Source: Lingula anatina
Lineage: Eukaryota > Animalia > Brachiopoda
DNA length: 64,000 bases
NCBI GenBank assembly: GCA_051362555.1
Contig: CM120641.1
Location: 37,392,401-37,456,400 of the forward strand
Direction of reading: 5' to 3'
The position numbers and the translations under genes were made by a program. Below the pieces are notes generated by a model. It made no database searches. It was not told where the DNA came from and saw only the letters and a program-made list of their open reading frames with translations. Shown piece after piece: positions 11,401-55,088 of this stretch. How positions within the stretch are numbered: the stretch's first letter is position 1; each line of letters begins with the position of its first letter.

Positions 11401-12723
11401 GTTTGTCTGTCTTTTTGTTACCTCCACCAAGGAGGTTATGTTTTCATCCCTGTTTGTTTGTCTGTCTGTCTGTCTGTTTGTTTATCATCAACATAACTCA
11501 AAAAGTTATGGGCAGATTTTTATGAAATTTACAGGGTAGGTAAGAAACAGGTTACCTTAGAAGTGGTTAGTTTTTGGTGGTGAGCAAGATCAATGATCAA
11601 TCAATAATCAAAAATAACTCAAAAAGTTATGGGCCAATTGTGATGAAATTTTCAGGAACTGTCACAAGTGGGCCAAGGAACAGATTATAAGTTTTTGGTG
11701 GTGATCCAGATCAATAATCAATCAAAAAACTAATCATTATAGAATGAAAATTGGGTGGAGACTTTGCTGCCTTGGTGGAGTGCTTTTCTACTTAAATCTA
11801 ATGATTTTGAATTTAGATAGGCATGTTGGTTTACATAGTCCTCCATGGAGCTGATTTTCACAAGCGAACTATACATGATGGCTGCTTAAGGAAGACTAAA
11901 AGTTACTCAAGACCAACTTTACATTGTAATGAATCCTCAGCCAAAAATAAAGGAAATTTTTAAGCAAAGGCAGATTCTAGAAATGACCGATCCCTTTGTT
12001 AAGGATGATTGTTAAGTGATTCCTTTCAAGTAAGGTAAAGAAAGGTCTTGGAATACAAATTTCGTATAAGGTCGACTTTTAAGTCTCCCTTAACGCTAAA
12101 GGGAGATTCTGGATACGGGCCAATGTCTGCTTGTAAGACCAGACTTCACGAATGGAGATTTCATTGTTTCATTATATACATATATTTAACTGCATGGAAT
12201 TCTACCTGGGACTACAAAAGGTTGAAGGGTGAAACTGTCTCATGCAAGATATACTGATATTTGGTGAGGGGTCATTTGGACGTTGGTGGAGTAAGTGTTC
12301 TTGCTTCCGAAGCCCAATATAGATCATAAGTGTATGGCGACAATAAAAATCCCCCCTTTGTTCATACTTTTGCGCCACAATTAACTAGGGTCCAAAATAT
12401 AGTTGATGTGGTTTATAGAAAAATCAACTGGTTAAGGTGACAGGCGAGCAAAACTGGGTCCACTTACCACTTACATTGGCGAGACCTTTCACTAAAACAA
12501 ACGTGGGTCTTCATAGGCGCACGTGCTCATTTACTAACGGGGCGCACGCACATTTATACTACGGAGGTGACTGAATAATAAGGTATTTGATGCTCGGAAA
12601 CTTAAAAAACTTACTTGTATTTTGTTGTAAGAGACGCGGCACATGCCTCTGTGGCACAGTAACACATACTGACAAAAAACCACGAGCTTGACTTATGAAA
12701 CGTGCTCTCAGCGTGGCCGACAT
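2466..12723 (-). CDS. DEAD-box RNA helicase, DDX21/DDX50-like, with predicted mitochondrial presequence (15 coding exons)
   Basis: GT-AG exons with consistent phases: 12615-12723, 9929-10100, 9645-9764 (Q motif GYSAPFEIQ), 9113-9193 (motif I AATGSGKT), 8767-8859 (Ia PTRELC), 8330-8480 (YGG, ATPGRL), 7718-7783 (II DEGD), 7156-7253 (III SAT), 5898-5970, 5566-5662 (IV CIVF), 4594-4727, 4025-4082 ([20 protein letters not shown]), 3607-3743 ([13 protein letters not shown]), 3257-3342, 2466-2910 (RGG/acidic tail, stop). Confidence 0.93.
2525..2715 (-). repeat. Coding tandem repeat (~54-60 nt x3) in helicase C-tail, encoding SRS(F/Y)GRQRGG units with Asp-rich spacers
   Basis: cccgcctctctgtctgcca(a/t)aactgcgagaa occurs three times, separated by (cat)n-type runs. 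Confidence 0.9.
6049..7030. mobile_element. Dispersed non-autonomous repeat, copy 3, in a helicase intron
   Basis: Same blocks (gggtctcagc, agattgaccccaaaatcac, tttgaccttgaaatataggtcaaa, catgagtgccaca) as 1-600. Confidence 0.7.
10766..12121. mobile_element. Non-autonomous Harbinger/PIF element with Myb/SANT remnant, in helicase intron 1
   Basis: TIRs ggcccgtattccaaga / ttctggatacgggcc with AAT on both flanks (3-bp TSD); internal + strand remnant [23 protein letters not shown] (~11285-11353) resembles the Myb-like protein carried by Harbingers. Confidence 0.75.
11363..11792 (+). mobile_element. Helentron-associated (HINE/DINE-1-like) element nested in the Harbinger
   Basis: 5' tattac.tccgccaaggagg (duplicated at ~11415), (gtct/gttt)n microsatellite, repeated ataactcaaaaagttatggg, 3' ccttggtggag complementary to the 5' subterminal repeat. 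Confidence 0.75.
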
Positions 12724-13294: not shown

Positions 13295-15480
13295 ATTACC
13301 AAAGATAACCCATGAAGACATCAACATCCTCAAAAATCTGAAAGGGACCCCATTGGCCTATATTGCTTCAGTGGATGTTCCAAAAGTAGATACACCATTA
13401 GGAGAAGTGCAACTTGGCTCATATCTATCTTATCAGGTAAAAATCTGCGTGATATCACATTACATTTCGACAACAAGTTCTCATCAGCTTTTGGCCAAAA
13501 AGTGGCAAAATTGGGGTAAAAATCACTGTATACAATAAAAGCATTTTCACTTCTATTTATACACATTTTCATTTAAATAAGTACCATTAAAAGTTATTTC
13601 TACAATTATACTTTATTTTTTAATCATCACTCATCTTCATTTGAGCTTTTATCAGTGACAAAAGTATCTTGACATAAAGTTAAAAAGCAACATATTGTCC
13701 ATATCTTATTAACACTCTGAAATAAGTTAGTTGGTACACATGTATGACATTTGAAAGAATTTGGTAACTTTTAACTTTTGCAATTAGTTTTTCAATATGA
13801 ACCCTGTGTTTAGCTATTTTTTGAGTTTGGTATGTTTGTGCTGCTGTCATTTGGGCTCCACTAGATGAAAATGGAGGAATGTTCAGTCTGAGCCCTAATG
13901 TTTTTAATTCTTTTTTTTAATTGTAAATCCTTTGTCAGTCATGACAGAAGCCCTTCAGCAATATAACCTTGTTGCTTAAGTTTATTTAGAAGTTCATAAA
14001 ATCCACTCTGTTCAGTAATGCATTTATCAGATATAGACCCAGTAAATAGTTCTGAAATGAAAATAACCGATCCACTGGGATCACAGCCAATAAGACCCTT
14101 CAGCGTTGTATTGGACTTATAATCACTATACATCTGACTTTGTAAACCAAGAGCAGATGGAGTTTGTGTTTTGAACTCGGTTCCATCAATAATAACCAAA
14201 GTATTTTGAAAGTCAGCTTTAAACTCTTTTGGCATATTCTCAATAATGATATTTCTATGCGCCCATATTGACATTTGTCCAAACTTAAGATATATGTGGA
14301 CTATCCATGTATTAAAAACACTTCCAGCAGACTGAACAGATAAACCAAACTTAATGGCAATATCCTGTAAGCCAAAATTGTGACGTAACCGTGTCAACAC
14401 TGAAAATAAGCAGTCCTCTTGTGTCAAAAGTTTAATATCATTCTGACCTTTTCCATGCTGTAGTATATAGTTGTCTGGTATCAAAAATTTGAACAGACTT
14501 TTAAACAGCTCATGAGTAATTCCTGTGTAGTACTTAAAGAGTCCCTTTATCTTCTGTTCTTTGTCGAAAACGCTTTCTATTCCAAATTTCATTTGATCAA
14601 CAATTTTTTTCCTTTAGCTGTTTATTTTCATCTTTCATTAATTAATGATCATTGACTCCAACAGCTTGATTTTATTTTTTTAGTCTAATTCACCATGCAA
14701 TATGTGTAAATCTCTGGATATAGCTAACATGTCCATTGGAGAAACCCCTGCAATATAAAAAAATATATTTACAAATATACTAAATGTATATGCTGACATG
14801 AGTTCTCATTAAATTATACAGTTAGTTTTCAATTATGACTGGTTTATTTCAGACAAGAAACATGAAAAGGAAGGAGGATCCAGTCCACAGAATTGGTTGT
14901 GCTGACAACTCTGTTTTCAAACCATCGCCAGTGATTTTACCCCAGGAATAGGTTATTTTGAACAATGAATATAATAACACAGATTTTGTTAAGCTGGAAC
15001 TTACAACCAAAGAACAATCTTTGTCAAAAGATTGGTTTGAGGCACGCAAGACCTGACTAACTGCCTGACACAGAAATACCCATTTTCATGAGTGTGGGTT
15101 AGTTATTAACAAGGACTACGCATTCCTGGGGCCAATTCCAGATGGAAAGTTGTGTGACAATGGACAAACTGGAATTGTAGAAATTAAATGTCCTTTCGCA
15201 GCAGGAAACATGAAAATTTTGACAACATGTGAAGACATTGCCAATTTTTGTCTGGAAAACAATAATGGGGAAATAAGATTAAATACAATCCATGACTATT
15301 ACGCCCAAATTCAAGGACAGCTCATGATAACAGGATGCGACTTCTGTAAATTTTTTTTATTTACACAATGTGATATGCACATTTAGAGGATTATGCCAGA
15401 TCAAGCTAACATGACAGAACTTCTTCAAAAACTATCCAGATTTTTCGAAGACTTTGCAAAACCATTTTTGTCTAATACTT
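13295..15480 (+). pseudogene. YqaJ-like (lambda exonuclease family) gene remnant of the same transposon, exons 13295-13436 and 14853-~15480
   Basis: TKEQSLSKDWFEARK, ECGLVI..FLGPIPDG, VEIKCPF, YYAQIQGQLMITG motifs with stops and frameshifts; upstream exon ending GSYLSYQ|gtaaaa joins tttcag|ACA in phase 0. Confidence 0.82.
13650..14748 (-). pseudogene. ISL2EU/Harbinger-like DDE (DDE_Tnp_4-type) transposase remnant
   Basis: ORF 13939-14592 has an HTH-like region (LTRLRHNFGLQDIAIKFGLS), IIDGTE and YSDYKSNTTLKGLIG..GSISD; after two frameshifts it continues VMTDKGF..LNIPPF..IAKHRVHIE (third catalytic residue). Confidence 0.88.
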
Positions 15481-29316: not shown

Positions 29317-32300
29317 CTATTCATGTGATCGGGGGAATATTGCGCAAATAGACACAACAATGGCAATAAGATACATATAGAAGAACAATCGGTCTAACAC
29401 CAACGCTATCACTCGCCATTCCTCGCACTTTTTTGTATTTGCGTCCTTTTCCGCTATTCTGTTCATAAAAGATCGCGCACACCTTCGAATGTCCCGGATC
29501 TCACTTTCCAGCGCAGTGATATTGACTGGCGATTTATCCGGCGGATTGCTCCAGTCTCCAGTATTGTTAGAGCTGGAATTATTTTGCATGCTTACGCCGC
29601 ACTCGCACATTTGATATTTGTTGTATTTTAGTTCTGGTACTTTGTTTTTCTTTTTCTCTTTGTTATTGATCAGTTTTACGCCCTCCATTTTGGGAGCGCC
29701 TCTCTGGTCGACATGGTACGTTTCGTCTGTCATGCACATAATTTTCGCAAATCCGTCCAGCATCACCTGAAACAGATTTAAGAGTCTTATTTGTTTGAGG
29801 CCTTGAAACTGAACAACAGTTTTAAAATGATTGTATCTAATGACACATACATACAATAGTAACATACATATATATATACACACACATACATACATACATA
29901 CACATACATACATACATACATACATACATAGTGTGAGTTCAAACAGACCTTCGAAATGCATTCAAAACATGCAATATATACACACATGAATAATTATCGT
30001 AACTTACGCACCAACATGCACAGGCAAAACGTACCCCTGTACAATTATCTCATAATCCAATTCTTAAAAGTGGGAACTGAAATATTTTGTGCTATTTGGT
30101 TTTAAATCAAATTCAGAAACATTTCATTTTCCAGTGCCCCCACAGACGATATGACCTTACCCGCTTCAGCCAGTTGGGCGCTTTTCGCCTCTTTGCACCT
30201 CTGAAGTAGAGGTTAATTACAATTGTGGACAGAAATGTGGATAAAGTGATGAGAATCATATTCAAGCAAAAATAGGCACCTGAAACAGAAATAACGATAT
30301 CATCAAAAGGTTTATCGTTAGTGATATTTTGATTTTGGTTAACAAAATACAAATAAAATTAAGAAGGTTCATCAAAATTTACCGTTTTTAAATTTAATTA
30401 TAAAATGACCTTTGCCAAATATTGGTATGAAACATTAGAGGTCACAATGATCGATATTCAACGTACCACTAAAAGGCTTGTGCTACTTTTTATGAAAGTC
30501 CGCAAATTAAATCGTGTCAGCGAATGTACCAGTAAAACGACCACGTTAAACATAAAACTATACCAATAAACCATTAAATCATCTCAAAATTAAATATAAA
30601 GTAAACAATTCTGATTTATCTCGCATAAAAAGCTAAAGTTACAAAACAAACTAATAATATTCATCACTACGCAATTTTGCAATGAAAACAGAAACAAAAT
30701 GGGTCCTAAGGCACCTTTTTGCACCTGATGTATCCGCAAAACGCATTCTGTGGCCTTTTCTGTTTAATTATGGACGCCAGGACGGCTACTTGTGTTCACC
30801 AAATACACACTGTGTTAATATATTATACGGACTACGTACACAAGACATGAGGATACAGCCACGGACACCAAAATATCCAACTTGAGAGATGAAAAAAGAG
30901 AGGTTGGTTATAGGAAATGGACTGCTGAGTTGTAAAGTGAGTGACCCCTAGGTCAGAAGTTTATTTTAGTTTATCTACGTTATATCTATAAGATGATTCG
31001 TGCTAAAAGGGTTTTAAATTGACATATTTTCTTATATATCAAAAACACAAAAAAGGCAAAAAACATGCGTAAATATAAATCGATACAATGATATGTAAAT
31101 ACGAGAAAAAGTTTTACCTTATAGTAATTTCAACATCTCTTTCTGTTCAGTGGCCTTTGTATTTTGAAAGCGTTTCACCATCAAACAATTCAAAGTAAGG
31201 TTAAAATAAACGTCTAAACAACATTAAAGAGACAACCAGATGTAATTCAGCGAATGGACAATTTAAGCTAGAGTTTATATACTTAGCATGGGCTTATTCG
31301 GTACTCTCCAAAAGGATCATCAGGTGCTCAAATTGTAATACGAATTAAATAGGCGTCCTGACGTCATATGTGCCCAAATTTCGTACCTATAAGTGGAATA
31401 GAGGAAGCGGCTGGGGGCGTGCTCTCCGCTAGTAGTAGCAACAAGACGAAAAATGCCACAAAAATATTCATTCCTGGAAAAGAGCAGTGGTTGGCATTGT
31501 TATAAAAACAATAATTATAAGGTGATGAAAATAGTGGACCCGGGCAGAAAACCGGCGGTACCATGTAAAGCAGTGGCTCTGAGGAAGGTTAAAGACGTAC
31601 AATCATTTGTGCAGTGCGCATGCAAATAACTATTTCAAATAATTGATTCCCATTTTGGATAGTGTGGAATTGCACATTAACCTTTGTATGGCGATCATGC
31701 TAGAGGACAATGTGTCAATATTTTTGACCATGTTCATAGTCAGTTACATGCTCGTTGGAGGGCGGTGATACAAGGACAAAAGCAGTCAAATGCATGCTCG
31801 TCGGATTGTATTTTGTGGTTGATTTGGTTTAAATGAAGGGTTCAAAAAATTTGAAGCGTGAATTTGGTTAAGTGCTTAAAATTTACTCTTATAAAAAAAT
31901 TCCCCCGACGAAGAATGCAGTTGACAAGAAGAATCGGGTGACAAGCTCTTCCATGGCGTCTGTAACGCTATGTTAGTTGACACGCTTACCTGACGCTATG
32001 CAGACCTACATTTGCTTAACCGTGTTGGAGGCGTCAGGCTTTGGCGTAGAGATTGCCATGGATGAGCTGTCGTGAACACAGGTTAACACATTCAATACAG
32101 GTACACCAAAAGCAATATCTGAGCGTGCCAGTCAACTGCCCTACCAACACCAGCAATATTACCTATCAATGGCACTTTGGCGGACGGTGGTGTTAGGTCC
32201 TTAAGAAGTAGTAAAAGCAGAAAGAACGCCACAAAGATATTCATGCCTGAAATGGACATAAGGAAAAACAAAAGGATATCAAATACAGCAGACAGCATCT

Positions 32301-35300
32301 ATACGCTTGGTTTTTGTTTTCATCAAGGTCGAAAGCTGGAATACCAATTGCAGCAACTATCATATCTGGAGAACAGACATAATACTACTTACTAATAGAA
32401 AGCAGTGGCGACAAGTTTCTCTCAATAATGTTTTTTTTTTCAAAGTCGGTGCGGCAAGAAGTTGATATTAGCAAGGTATTTTACATAATATACATTCAAT
32501 ATTGAAAACACACTCCCGTGAAGTGCAGTCTCGGCGAGATAGCAAAGTGCTTAATTCTTGGCATGTTGTCAACACTCACATCAATTTTTTTTTTTTTTTT
32601 GGCTTTTTTGCTTTTTTTGTACAAAATCTATCGGTGATTTACGTTGAAAAGCAGTGTACGAAATACTACAAAACACGAGTCATCATGACTAACTACAAAA
32701 TGCCCAATACTAAATAGATACTGAACGTTGCCAAACTTATACGTTAACGATCCATCCATAGATTTACACATGCGTATCAGTACAACCGATCATGCATTAA
32801 CAGGTACACAATTTCACATTGCCTTTTGGATGTGTACACGGTGTAAGAATACATGGATTGTGGTGAATCTCAGTCCACTGCTTCAATTAGGCAGTGCGCA
32901 TAAACATTCATTTAGAGAATAATTGACGAAAGGACGTTTCATTCGAAAAGTGCCCACCCCCTTGGCACGGGATGGTGGTTGTGCATGAACACTGCATCTT
33001 TAACATTTATGGGTGGTCTTTCGATGGAATTATGCGAACAAAAATTAAACAAAAGGGATGGGTATTTCTTTTGAAATAAACGTGGCTGCAAGGCCATTAT
33101 AAATATTTTGGGATGTAGTCGAAAAAAGTATATTATTAACAGTTCTTTGTATCTTAAACATATACTATTAAATTCAGATTTTATATTCAATCTATTGCAA
33201 TGTTTTAAAATAAGAAATCACTGTATACGGTTTGTTTAAAGTGCTTTATCTTATATGTTTCTTTATCTTACGGTAAACAAGGAGACAGGGACAACTTTGC
33301 ATGTGTTTACTTACCTAACTGCATTTTTGCTGGAGATTCAGGTGGCATCCAGAACAACGCTAAAGTCAAAGTCGATAACAAAACACAAGGTAGCACCAAA
33401 ATGTAATTATAAAATGCTACTTTTCTTCGAAATCTTATCGTAAACGTTAGATCGGGAAACGGCTCTGGGCAGCAAGGGTACGTTTTCACGTTCTTTTTAG
33501 CGGGGCTGTCCATCACCACCCACTCATTGGACTCGACGTAATCCTTCAGGTCGACCTTCTCCCCATCATAGAAAAACACATCCAGCTGGAAGCCATCATA
33601 TGTCCATGATCCAAACTTCATGTTGCACTCTTGGATATCGAAAGGGAAGTACGTAATGTCTATGTTACAGGAACTCTTAAAGATCGCCTGTGGAATCCAC
33701 ATGACTTGGCCGTCATTCGATACAACAGCCAAGGCCTCTCTTCGCTCCTTCAGACGAGTGTCGGCACTGAAAACGACAGATGTAATAATGATTGCTTTGA
33801 AAAGCACTGCGGTTATGAAAAGGATCCGTGTACGTATCAGTAAAAAGTCTTTGCTTTTCAAAAAATTAATTAACAATGCAGAGAGTAATACACTACCACT
33901 CATTATTGCATTATTATTATGATAACGTTTGTAAACGTTTTACTGGTCGTAACGTCCAAACATGCTACCGTTGTGGAAAAAGTTACCTTTTTTAACCAGA
34001 AAAACGTACAAACTTTTGACAACTTACTAGTTGTAAAGAACAATATCCGGCTTCCATATTTGGTCTGTGGGCACTCGGATCGTTTTGACATCACTGTAGT
34101 TCTTTGGATTCCATGCTAAAAGTTTGTCTTTCCACGCCTACAGAACATGAAATACAAAATGTAACGTGATTATGAGGGCAAGTACACTGCCTGGGATTAT
34201 TATTGTTAAGTTGCATCGGATTGTACCAGTCCCTTACAGTGCAGTGTAGAGATTGTGTTAGTTGCGAAAAGACGCATTCCTGTCTGTGCGCTAAATCTAA
34301 TTGTTCAGGTTCGGACAGTTGCAGAAGCATCTTAAATTTTGTTTATCAGTTGTGGATTAAAGGGGGGGGGGGGGTCAGGAAGGGTCTTTGTCCTGATCTT
34401 GTCCTGATCCTGATGAGAGGGTCTGAGAAAAAAATCACACTAACGTTCTCCTCCTGAAATTAGAATTTTGACCAGCTGATTTATAGTACTAAACCGTACC
34501 AAATGGCACCGTTCGCCCTCTAAAATACCAAAAATTTTCGGGGCCCTTCAGTGGGCCTCGAGCCCCACGCCAACCGGCGCCATCCGCGAACCCCACGCCA
34601 TCCGCGGCCCCCCTTCAAATAATCCTGTTTGTACATTCCAGGAAGATGAAGAGGCCAGTCAGGCTCTAAAAATCATTTTCAAGAAAGCTGTTGTAAATCA
34701 AGAAGAGGATCCAATGACCTCCAACTGAAGGCTGGCTTTCATACCAGTAGATTTTTGTTCTGACTGCATTGTCATAATAGTAAAGTTTAAACGTGTTTTT
34801 TTTATATGTACATTTTATGTATATTGTTTGGTAACGTTTCAATTTTTTACATAAAATTAAACAATATGGAAAAGTACATGATGATCACTACTGCTTAAAT
34901 AAATGTAAAGATATAAAAATCCAGTACTTTGCAAACTGCATTTTTATTTCTAAACGGATACAGCGATTGTCTATGTTTGAAACTATCTTAACATGATGGC
35001 ATCACATGAGGCTATCAGATCTAAGCTCCCTAAACCACACGCCGTATAACGGATCTGTTCGACTGCAATCAGTGGAATTCAGAATTAATTTGACGGTGAG
35101 ACAAATTTTTCAATATCCCAAGACGGATTTGCCATTTCCATATCATCAAATTAGAAAGTTTCGATGATCTTTAGAGATAAAGATATTTCAGCGAAGCAAG
35201 AGATACTCCCTAAATCAATAGACTATTAGACAAACATTCAAATTAAGGTTGATGGATTACAATCGATACAAGGAGAGCGAGCACAGACTTAGACCCTCAT

Positions 35301-38300: not shown

Positions 38301-41300
38301 TGTGTTAGATGTACCATGTTAAAACATTTATTATTTAAGTATATGTACGAATATCTAAACGAAAGAATATATCTATGTCCTTTGCTTACTGGTTTGTTTT
38401 TTTTATTGACATTGTCTGTTGTCCAATGAAATGTCTGTCTGCGATGGAAACTCTATTTATCCCGATGAAATTTTTTCAAGAGTCTTTTTTAACGTGCCCT
38501 TATTACTCTGTGATTGTCTTGAAAGTCACTGAACCTAATCAAGGTTGTGTTTGCTGATTAATCTTTGTTCCCTAGTTAATCAATAGGGGACTGTTCTCTT
38601 TCTCCTGGGAACCAGAAGTCGATTGTTTGAAAACACCCAGTATTCTTACAATGGGGTTTGTGACTAATGGACTGACTTCTAGACCCATATAAAGCAGCTA
38701 TCAGGGAACCATCTCACTTAAACTTGCCTACTTCCTGTTCGCTCTATATATCTGTACAGCCCTCGCGTTCTTTGGTGTTTGCCTTTTGTGAGTATGCAAA
38801 CGTATTGTATTGTATAGTATAGACCTCAAAGAACCCTAGGAGACTCCATGTTGGAACTTGCCCCCTTTTTTATCCTGTAAGTATTACATAATTTAAAAAC
38901 TAAATTCATTTGACTACATAGTTTTGACCACATCCTTCAATCATTTCCCTTTGAATAATTTACACTTCTACAGCATAGAGTATCATTTGCCTTTGATTTG
39001 AAAAGCTACGCTTTTAGATTGATGCGCGTGTAAATGCCTTAGGCAGGATTAATTTTGCTCGGTGCTATCTGGAACTCATTTTTCATGTTCTAAATGTCGT
39101 TAACAAATAATAAAATGTGACAAATCGCTATGGGTTCTTCTTTCACACACCCAACTGTCACTTTGGGATCAATGATTACCAGATACAACAAATATTGACT
39201 AATGTATCTCGTAAAGCAAATGGTTGTCAAATCGCAGGTCTCGTTACCATGACGTCCCTTACCAAAATCTATGATAAACAAGATATTTATTACTAAAATT
39301 GACTTGAATTCCCATTTCCCAGAATATTTCTATGAGCACCAGGTTCCAATTTCTGAATCTACTTAATGGATATGTGACAAGCTATCACTTTCAATGAGAA
39401 ACTATTTCTATATTAAGACTCTGCCACCCTTAACATCGCTCTTAGTTCAATGAAAAATATATAATTATTTTAAAAGATGGACGTGCTAATACGTCTGACC
39501 TGTTCGAGTCTGAATCGTCTTTGATTTTCATTTTTTTTTCTTTGGAGGGGTGGGATTGTATCGAAATATTAACTTAGATCTACGTAAGTGACCCAGCACA
39601 TTTTAAAATTTGAATTATGATTCATCCAGTTGTAATGTTCCCTCTGCGTCTCTGCTTAACATTTAGCAGATCTAAGTGTCCAGTATGAAAATTAATATTT
39701 TTGCCTTTTGATCCAGCATATTGTTATCAAACCTTGCTTCTTTACGTCCACTCCCCAAATCTGTTTAAGGTTGGTCAATGCAAAAGTCATGGCAAGTGGT
39801 ACAATTGTGATTACGAACTGAAAGAAAAGTGACTTACGTATCTGCTCCAGCAATTGGTCGTCAGAACTTGGTTCTTTTCGTCCAAATCTAAAATCTGTAT
39901 GAGGGCTATACCAAAGCTGACTCGAATGGTGTCGTTAAAGTTTTCGACCGGTCGACCGACCACACCAACATCGTTGTACTGTTTTAGTAGGTGGCTGATA
40001 AGGCGTTTTTCGTCCGAAACTGCTATACTTCCTGAAAGCAAAATGGCCGTGTAAACGTTAATTATATTCTTCATTAATGCATTATCTGGCATACACTTAA
40101 AAAGTTTGAGTTTAGGTAACGAAAACATTAGAGCAACCAAGAAATTTTACATACCTAACGCCTCTAAAAGAAAATTACCATCTTGAAGTGCTGTATTTTA
40201 TTTAATTAATTAATTAATAATGTTATAAGATTATACATAAACATGTCGCTACTTTTCTAAGTAAGTATTTATCAAAGTAGAATTTAATTTGAATGTTTTT
40301 CGCTTGGATAAAAACGTAAAAAGACAGCTGTCAATATGGCATGTTACAAACTATTCACCAATATTGGAACAAAAGCAAATTTCCAACAATTAAACCATTG
40401 AACCAAATGTGCATCCCTTAGATACATTAATAACTGGAAATGGTATGTTTAAGGTGTCTGGCATATGTCACTTGCGTCGCAGACAAATTAAAACAGACCC
40501 CGTGGAGTCAGACGTAAGTTTTAACTTACATTTTGTTATTTTAAAAAACGCCACCATTACACCTGGTTTCAGACACTATCGACCAGTTGCGATGTATGTC
40601 CATTGTATATATCTTAATCGTATACACACTGCAGGTGTAGGCAATGTGAGCAACCATCCAACCATATATCACGTACATTTCATTGTAAAAAAACAACAAA
40701 AATTAACTTATATATGTTTGCATGTACATAATACGAGGTACCGATGACTTTAGAAGCCATATGGAAGAGATGTATGGTGATCATTACACGTGGATGTCGC
40801 CTGCCACCTGTAAGAATATACCTGACCGCTCGCACACCTGAGCATATTTGGGCCTCTAAGCACCTGTGAATTCGGCTATGTACAAGACTGTATAATGCAT
40901 GCACAATATATTTATAATACGCCTAAAATTTCTGACCACCTGGTCATCCAAGGTTACATGCTGTTGTGTACGTAACAGAGAAAAATATGGTGGAGAAATT
41001 GGTAAAGAGTTATAAATCGCAATTCCTGGAATAGGTTTACTGCATGTACCGGGCTTCTGCACGCGTGAACATTCCCGATCACCAATGTAAAAATTGGAGG
41101 ATAAATATTTCCAGGTGTGAAAAAATAAACACTTACCACCTGAAAATACCTTGTTTTTACATTAAAAGATGGATAATCAATTAAAATATATTTACTTAAA
41201 AGGTCAGTCGGTGGGGGTTTTTTTTGGGTCCTAGGTCTTCCTACTTTATTTTAAGATTTTAAAAGGTTTCGTCCCAGATCAAGATTCGCATTTGAAAAGA

Positions 41301-44500: not shown

Positions 44501-45007
44501 TACACTCATCACCTATATCGACCGTCCTTTACCACATAATAATAGACTAATTGCAGCATCTCTTGTTGAATGAAGTACGACCAATGAAATGCTAATGACA
44601 GAAAGTTTCTCGGATGTCACAACGCCGTGGGTCGATGAGGACGCTACCTTTCTGTATATCCCATCACTTTCAGCAAATAAGGAGTTAGGTAGACAATTCT
44701 GTATCGATTTTCAATCAATCCTCTATGAAAACCCTGCCCAACACAAATGCCGATTTCACGTGTAAAAAAAAAATTAAATGCGAAACCGATAGAAAGTAAT
44801 GACCGATAGAAATGAAGATTTTAATTGTAGTTTCTTTCGTTATGCAGTTGTCCGTATCCATATCTGAATAGCTCATAACAAGTTCCAAATCGATGTCATT
44901 GTTTACTAATAACGTAAAACTTAGTAGAAAAAACGCGTATTACTATACTTACCAATTAAAAGCCATGGTAAAATCATTTTAAGCATGGACTTTCCCCAGT
45001 GAACCAT
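29317..45007 (-). CDS. Nicotinic acetylcholine receptor alpha subunit, anion-selective (PAK) type
   Basis: Exons: 44953-45007 ([18 protein letters not shown], tentative), 42303-42341 (tentative), 39838-40031 ([17 protein letters not shown]), 34028-34137 (WKPDIVLYN), 33315-33766 (Cys-loop [21 protein letters not shown], vicinal YPCC, M1, ESPAKMQL), 32163-32246 or 31387-31473 (M2), 30161-30279 (M3), 29317-29766 (MA, M4, stop). All GT-AG and phase-consistent. Confidence 0.93.
29845..29930. repeat. (TACA)n/(CA)n microsatellite in nAChR intron
   Basis: Direct reading. Confidence 0.9.
31387..31473 (-). CDS. nAChR alternative M2 exon B (87 nt): [29 protein letters not shown]
   Basis: ttttccag|GA ATG ... 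ATA G|gtacga, phase 1-1, intact. Confidence 0.9.
31902..31922 (-). promoter_or_regulatory. Putative editing-site complementary sequence (ECS) for the S-P-A-K-M-Q-L codons
   Basis: Pre-mRNA AACUGCAUUCUUCGUCGGGGG pairs with exonic UCUCCAGCAAAAAUGCAGUU (33336-33317); all non-Watson-Crick positions are G:U, A:C or one bulged C. Confidence 0.55.
31940..32071 (-). other. Long intronic hairpin between the two M2 exons
   Basis: gacaagctcttccatggc (31940-31957) pairs with gccatggatgagctgtc (32055-32071); continues through 31958-31970/32042-32053 and cctgacgc/gcgtcagg. Confidence 0.7.
32163..32246 (-). CDS. nAChR alternative M2 exon A (84 nt): [28 protein letters not shown]
   Basis: tttcag|GC ATG ... 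ATA G|gtaata, phase 1-1, intact. Confidence 0.88.
32869..32890 (-). promoter_or_regulatory. Putative docking site for mutually exclusive splicing of the M2 exons
   Basis: Pre-mRNA CUAAUUGAAGCAGUGGACUGAG is complementary to 32392-32408 (upstream of exon A) and to 31568-31583 (upstream of exon B) over a shared 9-nt core. Confidence 0.55.
34347..34627. mobile_element. Degenerate copy of the MITE family at 60962-61202
   Basis: Shared cagt.g.ggatt.a.agggggg.gtcagg, gaaattagaattttg, aaac.gtaccaaa.ggcac, cccccttcaaataatcctg. Confidence 0.7.
37320..37454. mobile_element. Short MITE
   Basis: TIRs taccctctaccaggg / ccctggtagagggta. Confidence 0.7.
41477..41558. repeat. (TA)n followed by (TG)n microsatellite
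   Basis: Direct reading. Confidence 0.95.
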
Positions 45008-54000: not shown

Positions 54001-55088
54001 AGAGCATATTCCACATGAATGGATTAACGCGTAAAGATAACACAAGTCCAGGAAGACTATCTTGTCACAGAGTGTACCTTGACACTTAACATCAATCTTC
54101 CATTGTAGACAAGAGACAAGACAATGCACTCTCCACGCTTAAGTATTTGCTTTAGTTAACACATACGCAGGTTTGAGTAATTGATTGCAGGTAACATGGA
54201 CGTATATAGTTGCAACTTGCAGCCTACCTGTACGTAATACCAGCCAGGAGAGAATGAAGCTTGTTTGAAGCCACATTTTCATAGCAGGAGTAAACGCGAC
54301 GACAGGATACTAATGTCCGCTGGCAAATTATGTCCACTTGTCCATAGTATGCAATAACTGCATCGTGTGCGGTTCTCTGTTTGAAAATGATGGCGTGTTT
54401 CTAAGTCAAAGTCACTTGCTCCTTGCCTTAAAAGCAAATTCAAACACTTCGATCGGGAACCGGAACGCTACGTCATAGAATTATATCGATGTTGCGCGAC
54501 CTGCCTTCTCATAGCGCGGCTCGGAATATACATGGGTAGGGCACCTCTTCTTGTGTTTACAGTTTTTATTCAGATAAATATAATTTTCTTATTATGATGA
54601 TTTTGATAGCGTGTGATCACCTTCACCTACAGCGGACCGATTCCATCCGACAGACAACGCACGTATGTAATCTGCGCCTCTCTTGAAATATTCATAGTGA
54701 TCCTAATTGCTTTTTCCTTGGTGAATTGAATACATGCATTGCATGTTGAGCACTGCCAAGCGGAGCTCCCCTTGGGCTAAATTCCTTATTCGTACTCTTA
54801 CAATAAAGAAATGAATTTTGTGGCTTTTTAGTCAGGGTTTTGGTTGGTAAAGCGGATAGAGACTTTTTTGTTTGCAACCAACTTAAATCACTTATATAAA
54901 TACCGCCGGTTAGCAACAATTTTTACAGACAAACGGTTAATTTCCCTAGACGGATCAAAACATGTTTGTACGCTACCCAAGGGCTAAAACCGTGTTCCTT
55001 TTCTCATTTCTTCATTGAAACGCAGATCAGGAGAGTGGTGGGGTCATTAGGCCCTGTAATGCGTTCTCACCAGGATGTAAGATTCCAG

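What the first reader, a model, noticed from the sequence alone, without database searches (positions are those of the whole stretch)
31387..32246. Tandemly duplicated, mutually exclusive M2 (pore-lining) exons in an anion-type nAChR
Seen: two intact paralogous phase 1-1 exons (84 and 87 nt) with identical 4'-12' residues but different codons, differing at 13' (L/V), 19'-21' (KDL versus AES) and in the M2-M3 loop (PPSAKVPL versus PPAASSIPL, one residue longer). Known: 19'/20' form the outer charged ring and the M2-M3 loop couples binding to gating; insect alpha6 uses alternative exon 8a/8b for TM2. Inference: one gene makes two chloride-channel isoforms with different outer-ring charge (K+D versus E). 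Both lengths are multiples of 3 and the exons are 689 nt apart, so neither NMD nor a short intron enforces exclusivity; an active mechanism is needed.
Basis: partly seen in the sequence, partly recalled or inferred. Interest (0 to 1): 0.8.

Follow-up and report, generated by a model that had tools for sequence, protein, structure and literature searches.

The report
Switchable pore exon, brachiopod chloride receptor
A lamp-shell gene for a predicted chloride-passing acetylcholine receptor carries two intact, long-diverged copies of the exon that builds its pore lining and likely uses one or the other, a switch known from an insect receptor that also turns up in related genes of octopus, oysters, scallops and an annelid.

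Summary
Real. Two intact phase 1-1 M2 exons (84 and 87 nt, 689 nt apart) lie in a Pro-Ala (anion-type) nAChR gene whose exon 3 is identical to a Lingula anatina RefSeq protein; RefSeq already lists isoforms with either exon. Exon B is the clade's standard pore. Exon A is under purifying selection (19 base changes, 4 residue changes) and has a lysine at 19' seen in 1 of 83 M2 peptides. Reads join exon 3 to A in 2 of 8 runs, but where reads pass A's donor it is unspliced; 40 reads cannot test exclusivity. Either-or M2 isoforms occur in 10 other species; the genes are not one clade. Both-included and M2-less models exist in relatives, so exclusivity is probably leaky. A related locus has crossing inverted repeats around its exons; the window has none. 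Closest known: insect alpha6 exons 8a/b/c. No paper found in 10 searches; this scan noted the octopus case before. Channel function is untested.

The parts
39838..40031 (-). shared coding exon (start of mature protein)
   Evidence: matches RefSeq isoform residues 25-89; AG/GT read
34028..34137 (-). exon 2, ligand-binding domain
33315..33766 (-). exon 3: Cys-loop, loop C (YPCC), M1, M1-M2 linker PESPAK (Pro-Ala at -2'/-1'), M2 0'-3'; donor GTAAGT
   Evidence: 100% to XP_013418084
32163..32246 (-). M2 exon A (84 nt): L13', K19', D20', shorter M2-M3 loop; RefSeq isoform X2
   Evidence: exon3-A joint in runs X7 and X8
31474..32162 (-). intron between A and B, 689 nt; four GCATG; no AG in the 105 nt before B; in-frame stop 23 codons after A if retained
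31387..31473 (-). M2 exon B (87 nt): V13', A19', E20'; conserved form; RefSeq isoforms X1, X3, X4
   Evidence: 92 read letters confined to its bin in run X6
30161..30279 (-). exon 5: M3
29317..29766 (-). last coding exon: intracellular loop, M4, stop
44953..45007 (-). alternative first coding exon (signal peptide of isoform X3)
54228..54282 (-). alternative first coding exon (signal peptide of isoform X4)

Best explanation
The gene encodes a predicted chloride-selective nicotinic receptor subunit and holds two intact copies of its pore (M2) exon, which are likely spliced as alternatives to give two subunits that would differ in gating or conductance rather than in ion sign. Shown: both exons, open frames, purifying selection on A, use of A's acceptor. 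Inferred: B gives the standard pore (V13', E20'); A gives a bulkier 13', adds K19' (net charge at 19'-20' 0 instead of -1 per subunit) and shortens the coupling loop. The Pro-Ala filter lies in shared exon 3, so both forms should stay anionic. Choice is most likely made by splicing factors acting on two weak donors (Rbfox-type GCAUG sites are candidates), with A's donor slow to splice; it is probably leaky, and A+B or skipped products would be lost at the protein level. The exon has most likely been duplicated several times in this receptor clade.
For: Anatomy. Selection. RefSeq isoforms with A or B and none with both among the 4 cluster members. Exon3-A joints, 3 reads from 2 starts in each of X7 and X8. 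92 letters on B's bin with none in either neighbour bin in X6. 11 isoform pairs, identical for 200 residues before M2 and all the way after it, in Lingula, 2 octopuses, 4 oysters, 4 scallops; two M2 exons with AG/GT in locus L001. Genes with pairs need at least 5 changes on the tree and are rejected as one clade, p-AU 5e-6. Donors of A and B match 6 of 9 consensus letters, exon 3 8 of 9. Four GCATG in the A-B intron, 29 of 2000 shuffles.
Against: Only 40 reads in 8 runs; no A-exon5, exon3-B or B-exon5 joint reached the listing threshold. In X7 all three exon3-A reads continue about 37-39 nt into the intron, and a further pair in X7 and one in X6 also lie past A's donor (depth arithmetic). Both-included models exist in 4 oysters and 1 scallop. 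GCATG enrichment is post hoc and 2 of 92 tiles of the window reach 4. No current was measured; the roles of 13', 19' and 20' are recalled from other Cys-loop receptors.
Confidence: 0.72

Rival explanations
1. Exon A is mainly a regulatory or dead-end exon: it is joined to exon 3 but its downstream intron is retained, giving a stop 23 codons later and a truncated or degraded transcript that turns the receptor down.
For: Every read or pair that can be seen to pass A's donor is unspliced there (X7, an oligo-dT library, and X6); read-through meets a stop; weak donor.
Against: The reads are a handful of fragments, perhaps 1-3 molecules per run; X6 also has pairs in the B-exon5 intron, so it holds pre-mRNA; RefSeq X2 joins A to exon 5; A keeps its residues and an in-register donor under selection; no AATAAA or ATTAAA in the A-B intron.
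Confidence: 0.12
2. One ancient exon pair (L13'/D20' and V13'/E20') existed in the ancestral spiralian gene; Lingula keeps both, and gene duplicates elsewhere kept one each. This concerns origin only and is compatible with functional either-or splicing.
For: A's nearest peptide is the second Dimorphilus exon (23 of 25); L13'+D20' occurs in 9 and V13'+E20' in 17 distinct peptides; Owenia and Dimorphilus have one paralogue of each type; the Lingula and octopus short exons are both L13', 28 residues, ending VPLIG.
Against: Bivalve pairs share gene-specific residues and are nearest to each other; exon order differs (L first in the window, V first in L001); 5 of 6 intron-bearing loci spanning exon 3 to M3 have one exon; many losses would be needed. 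28-residue peptides carry little signal.
Confidence: 0.25
3. Exon A is a decaying pseudo-exon or an assembly artefact (two haplotypes joined).
For: K19' is unique among 83 peptides and the loop has lost a residue.
Against: Strong purifying selection; unrelated flanking introns; junction reads in two runs carrying other alleles; same layout in L001.
Confidence: 0.04

Closest known systems
Insect nAChR alpha6 mutually exclusive exons 8a/8b/8c (PMC1919356, PMC8505678, PMC6393475; passages read)
   Same: Tandem copies of the exon for TM2 and the TM2-TM3 loop, one conserved and one more variable; used as alternatives. PMC6393475 says that the functional effect remains unknown there too.
   Different: alpha6 is an alpha7-like cation subunit (recalled); this gene has the Pro-Ala linker and both exons carry clade-specific residues, so the duplication is separate. 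Here the swap changes charge at 19'-20' and loop length.
Lophotrochozoan anion-selective nAChRs: Lymnaea LnAChR B/F/I/K (van Nierop 2005, not read, cited through PMC4055736) and Schistosoma SmACC-1/-2 (PMC4055736, passages)
   Same: nAChR fold with Pro-Ala at the M2 start; exon B peptide is identical in 52 of 268 single-M2 proteins of the clade fetched here.
   Different: No alternative M2 exon is mentioned in the passages seen ('splic' 0 times in PMC4055736; once, in a reference, in PMC6896357; 0 in PMC13174522).
RefSeq models XP_013418082-7 (Lingula anatina, isoforms X1-X4)
   Same: Both exons are already annotated automatically.
   Different: Named 'alpha-5', with no recognition of anion type or of the pore switch.

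Membership tests
nAChR alpha subunit | Cys-loop ligand-binding domain plus four-helix membrane domain | tested here: met
   Pfam PF02931 and PF02932 above cut-off for both isoforms; best solved relatives are alpha4 and alpha7; model with four helices
nAChR alpha subunit | vicinal cysteines in loop C (YxCC) | tested here: met
   YPCC in exon 3
Lophotrochozoan anion-selective nAChR (LnAChR B/F/I/K, SmACC) | Pro-Ala in place of the Glu ring before M2 | tested here: met
   PESPAK aligns with alpha4 SECGEK; feature as defined in PMC4055736
Lophotrochozoan anion-selective nAChR (LnAChR B/F/I/K, SmACC) | groups with named type-B and ACC-1 subunits, apart from cation subunits | tested here: met
   100/100 branch against two fish outgroup rows; outgroup thin, position inside the clade unresolved
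Lophotrochozoan anion-selective nAChR (LnAChR B/F/I/K, SmACC) | acetylcholine-gated chloride current | not testable with these tools
   needs expression and recording
Mutually exclusive tandem-duplicated exons | homologous neighbouring exons, same phase, intact splice sites | tested here: met
Mutually exclusive tandem-duplicated exons | each exon included alone in mature mRNA | tested here: inconclusive
   RefSeq has both forms; reads show exon3-A only, B by depth only
Mutually exclusive tandem-duplicated exons | rarely both, rarely neither | tested here: inconclusive
   0 of 4 Lingula models have both or neither; 40 reads are too few; relatives have such models
Insect alpha6 exon 8 system (as an orthologue) | alpha6/alpha7-type gene with Glu at -1' | tested here: not met
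   Ala at -1'
Insect alpha6 exon 8 system (as an orthologue) | same exon boundaries | not tested
   no insect sequence was fetched; region is the same by PMC8505678, 87-nt length recalled

The most novel reading that the evidence does not exclude
The pore exon of spiralian inhibitory acetylcholine receptors is a hot spot that was duplicated four or five times, converging on the same changes (13' side chain, loss of negative charge at 19'-20', a one-residue shorter loop) but with different exclusion devices (competing RNA stems in L001, protein factors in Lingula). Lingula's exon A rebuilds a glycine-receptor-like basic 19' position and gives a channel with clearly different conductance, rectification or gating from one gene.
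Probability: 0.3. Interest if true: 0.72.

Novelty: new variant of a known kind. Interest (0 to 1): 0.5.

Why it matters
Natural isoform pairs that differ only in the outer half of M2 and the M2-M3 loop are ready-made experiments on how an nAChR-derived chloride channel with an acidic 20' ring sets conductance and gating. Repeated duplication of one exon across phyla, with and without RNA stems, makes the origin of mutually exclusive splicing directly comparable. It also means that gene counts understate inhibitory cholinergic diversity in molluscs, annelids and brachiopods. The principle itself is known from insect alpha6, and both isoforms are already in automated annotation.

Tried and rejected
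No whole genome is held. No RNA holder listed by index; nine raw-read runs were offered by species label; 8 of 9 were laid, 3 gave no read. RNA pairing as the exclusion device in the window: best intron-intron stems no better than shuffles (291 and 247 of 300); donor-proximal duplexes not significant; A-B intron fold z about -2.3 to -2.5, but 2 of 9 other intron tiles reach -2.1 and -2.6; a predicted exon A-exon B helix follows from codon make-up and was not pursued. No conserved intron motif between the window and L001. Intronic polyadenylation signal absent in the A-B intron. The first tree had L001 exon 5 in a wrong frame; corrected, where 22 of 72 rows were left out (long, partial or redundant). 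Donor scores for exons 2 and 5 were mis-indexed and are not used. Single-sequence fold was useless (pLDDT 39.6); the alignment fold (72.1) is a monomer and cannot show the pore. The second PDB search added nothing. van Nierop 2005 could not be read. A search for papers on the 19' ring found none, so that role is recalled.

Full report
Observation. On the minus strand the gene runs exon 3 (33766-33315), exon A (32246-32163, 84 nt), exon B (31473-31387, 87 nt), exon 5 (30279-30161) and the last exon (from 29766). A and B have AG/GT sites, phase 1-1, and lie 689 nt apart; A alone, B alone, both and neither all keep the frame. They differ at 13' (L/V), 19'-21' (KDL/AES) and in the loop; the numbering agrees with the alignment to human alpha4, where B's loop length is the normal one. 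A profile of 74 M2 peptides finds these two copies and no third in the window. Over codons 5'-23', 19 of 57 bases but 4 of 19 residues differ; random placement gives 10.9 on average and never 4 or fewer in 20000 draws. The three introns show no mutual similarity. The pair is old and A is kept by selection.

Identity. Exon 3 is 100% identical to Lingula anatina XP_013418084. Its cluster has four RefSeq isoforms: X2 with A; X1, X3, X4 with B; none with both or neither. Both forms pass the Pfam cut-offs for the nAChR domains. The linker PESPAK has Pro-Ala where alpha4 has Gly-Glu, the mark of nAChR-derived chloride channels of Lymnaea and Schistosoma (PMC4055736, passages). It lies in exon 3, so both isoforms share it. 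B is the standard pore: its exact peptide is in 52 of 268 single-M2 proteins fetched. A is the odd one: K or R at 19' occurs in 1 of 83 distinct M2 peptides, A itself. In the alignment-based model M2 runs to residue 294 (21'), so 19'-21' is the last turn and the missing residue falls in the loop.

Transcripts. Nine raw-read RNA runs were offered by species label; 8 were laid, 6-30% of each read. They gave 17 reads and 23 reads; X2, X3 and X4 gave none. The only joint listed (threshold 3 reads, 2 starts) is exon 3 to A with GT-AG ends: 3 reads in X7, 3 in X8. From binned depth (my inference): the X7 joint reads have at most 29 letters on exon 3 and run about 37-39 nt past A's donor, a further X7 pair lies in the A-B intron, and one X6 pair crosses A's donor; the X8 reads end at A's end and say nothing; X6 has 92 letters on B's bin and none in the bins beside it, as spliced inclusion of B would give, but also two pairs in the B-exon5 intron. 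So A's acceptor is used; A-exon5 rests on RefSeq X2 alone; exclusivity is untested. Retention after A meets a stop 23 codons on. Three read alleles in exon 3 are synonymous.

Relatives. I looked up 30 clusters chosen by hand from the 120 hits listed in each of two searches, so the counts are no census. Isoform pairs identical for 200 residues before M2 and throughout after it occur in Lingula, 2 Octopus, 4 oysters and 4 scallops; a Dimorphilus model has two M2 copies in a row. Among stored proteins 6 have two copies and 9 none; two of the latter (Aplysia, Haliotis) belong to genes where no second exon was seen. Of 80 metagenome loci, 30 have the anion-type linker, 7 reach M3, 1 of these has no introns, and 1 of the other 6 (L001) has two M2 exons with AG/GT. 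On a tree without the M2 exon (50 rows) the genes with pairs fall in separate groups, needing at least 5 changes, and one clade is rejected (p-AU 5e-6); 'single' there mostly means no second isoform seen, and the tree cannot tell gains from losses. Of six lineage-level pairs (Lingula, octopus, oyster, scallop, Dimorphilus, L001), 13' differs in 5, charge at 19'-20' in 3, loop length in 3.

Mechanism. Frame and intron length cannot enforce the choice. In L001 two crossing inverted repeats flank one exon each (16 nt perfect, 2 of 300 shuffles; 21 nt at 90%, 1 of 300); five single-exon loci show nothing alike (17 to 120 of 150). This suggests competing stems there; it was noticed after the fact. 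The window has no such stems (291 and 247 of 300). It has weak donors at A and B (6 of 9 consensus letters, exon 3 8 of 9), a 105-nt AG-free zone before B and four GCATG in the A-B intron (P 0.015, post hoc); that GCAUG is the Rbfox site is recalled. I therefore take protein-factor control with leak as most likely. From recalled work on Cys-loop receptors, 13' lines the gate, 20' is the outer ring of nAChRs, 19' is the basic ring of glycine receptors, and the M2-M3 loop couples binding to gating; A would then conduct chloride differently and gate differently, with unchanged ion sign. None of this was measured.

Known systems and novelty. Insect alpha6 has mutually exclusive exons 8a/b/c for TM2 and its loop, older than 300 million years, of unknown functional effect (passages of PMC1919356, PMC8505678, PMC6393475). 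This gene works like that but is not an alpha6 orthologue. Ten searches of the open library (listings seen) and passages of PMC6896357, PMC13174522, PMC4055736 and bioRxiv 2021.05.17.444496 gave no description of alternative M2 exons in anion-type nAChRs; subscription papers, van Nierop 2005 and 2006 among them, and all supplements were not seen. Earlier notes of this scan report the octopus pair, with a 40-nt spacing that I did not check. Verdict: real, functional in all likelihood, a new variant of a known kind; interest 0.5.

Noticed in passing
L001:11306-11321 with 11705-11720; 11622-11642 with 12102-12122: Two crossing inverted repeats, each flanking one of two M2 exons; beyond shuffles. 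A 14-15 bp hairpin at 11586-11621 lies beside them. Candidate competing-stem switch.
   Followed up: partly
L001:11467-11553: First M2 exon has a polar Asn at 15' and a basic loop (PRAMKV), unusual for the clade.
   Followed up: no
proteins P0106, P0113, P0329, P0331: The oysters' second exon has Q19' R20' (net +1), S16' and a shorter loop, the same peptide in four species.
   Followed up: partly
proteins P0326, P0237: M2-less RefSeq isoforms in Aplysia and Haliotis genes with no second exon seen; the exon seems prone to skipping in this clade.
   Followed up: no
window 54282 and 45007 (-): Alternative first exons with different signal peptides; the first exon of isoforms X1/X2 was not found in the window.
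   Followed up: partly
window 23485-21306 (-): Opsin-like 7TM gene (Pfam 7tm_1; Lys in the seventh helix, Asp-rich tail), two pieces, just downstream.
   Followed up: no
window 14613-13942 (-) and 15069-15383 (+): DDE_Tnp_4 transposase piece next to a YqaJ-like domain: probable transposon.
   Followed up: no
window 2930-2469 (-): Open frame with Gly/Arg/Asp repeats ([10 protein letters not shown]...DDDD); not examined.
   Followed up: no
L002, L006, L008, L011, L014 exon 3: Anion-type subunits whose loop C lacks the vicinal cysteines (YxGL).
   Followed up: no
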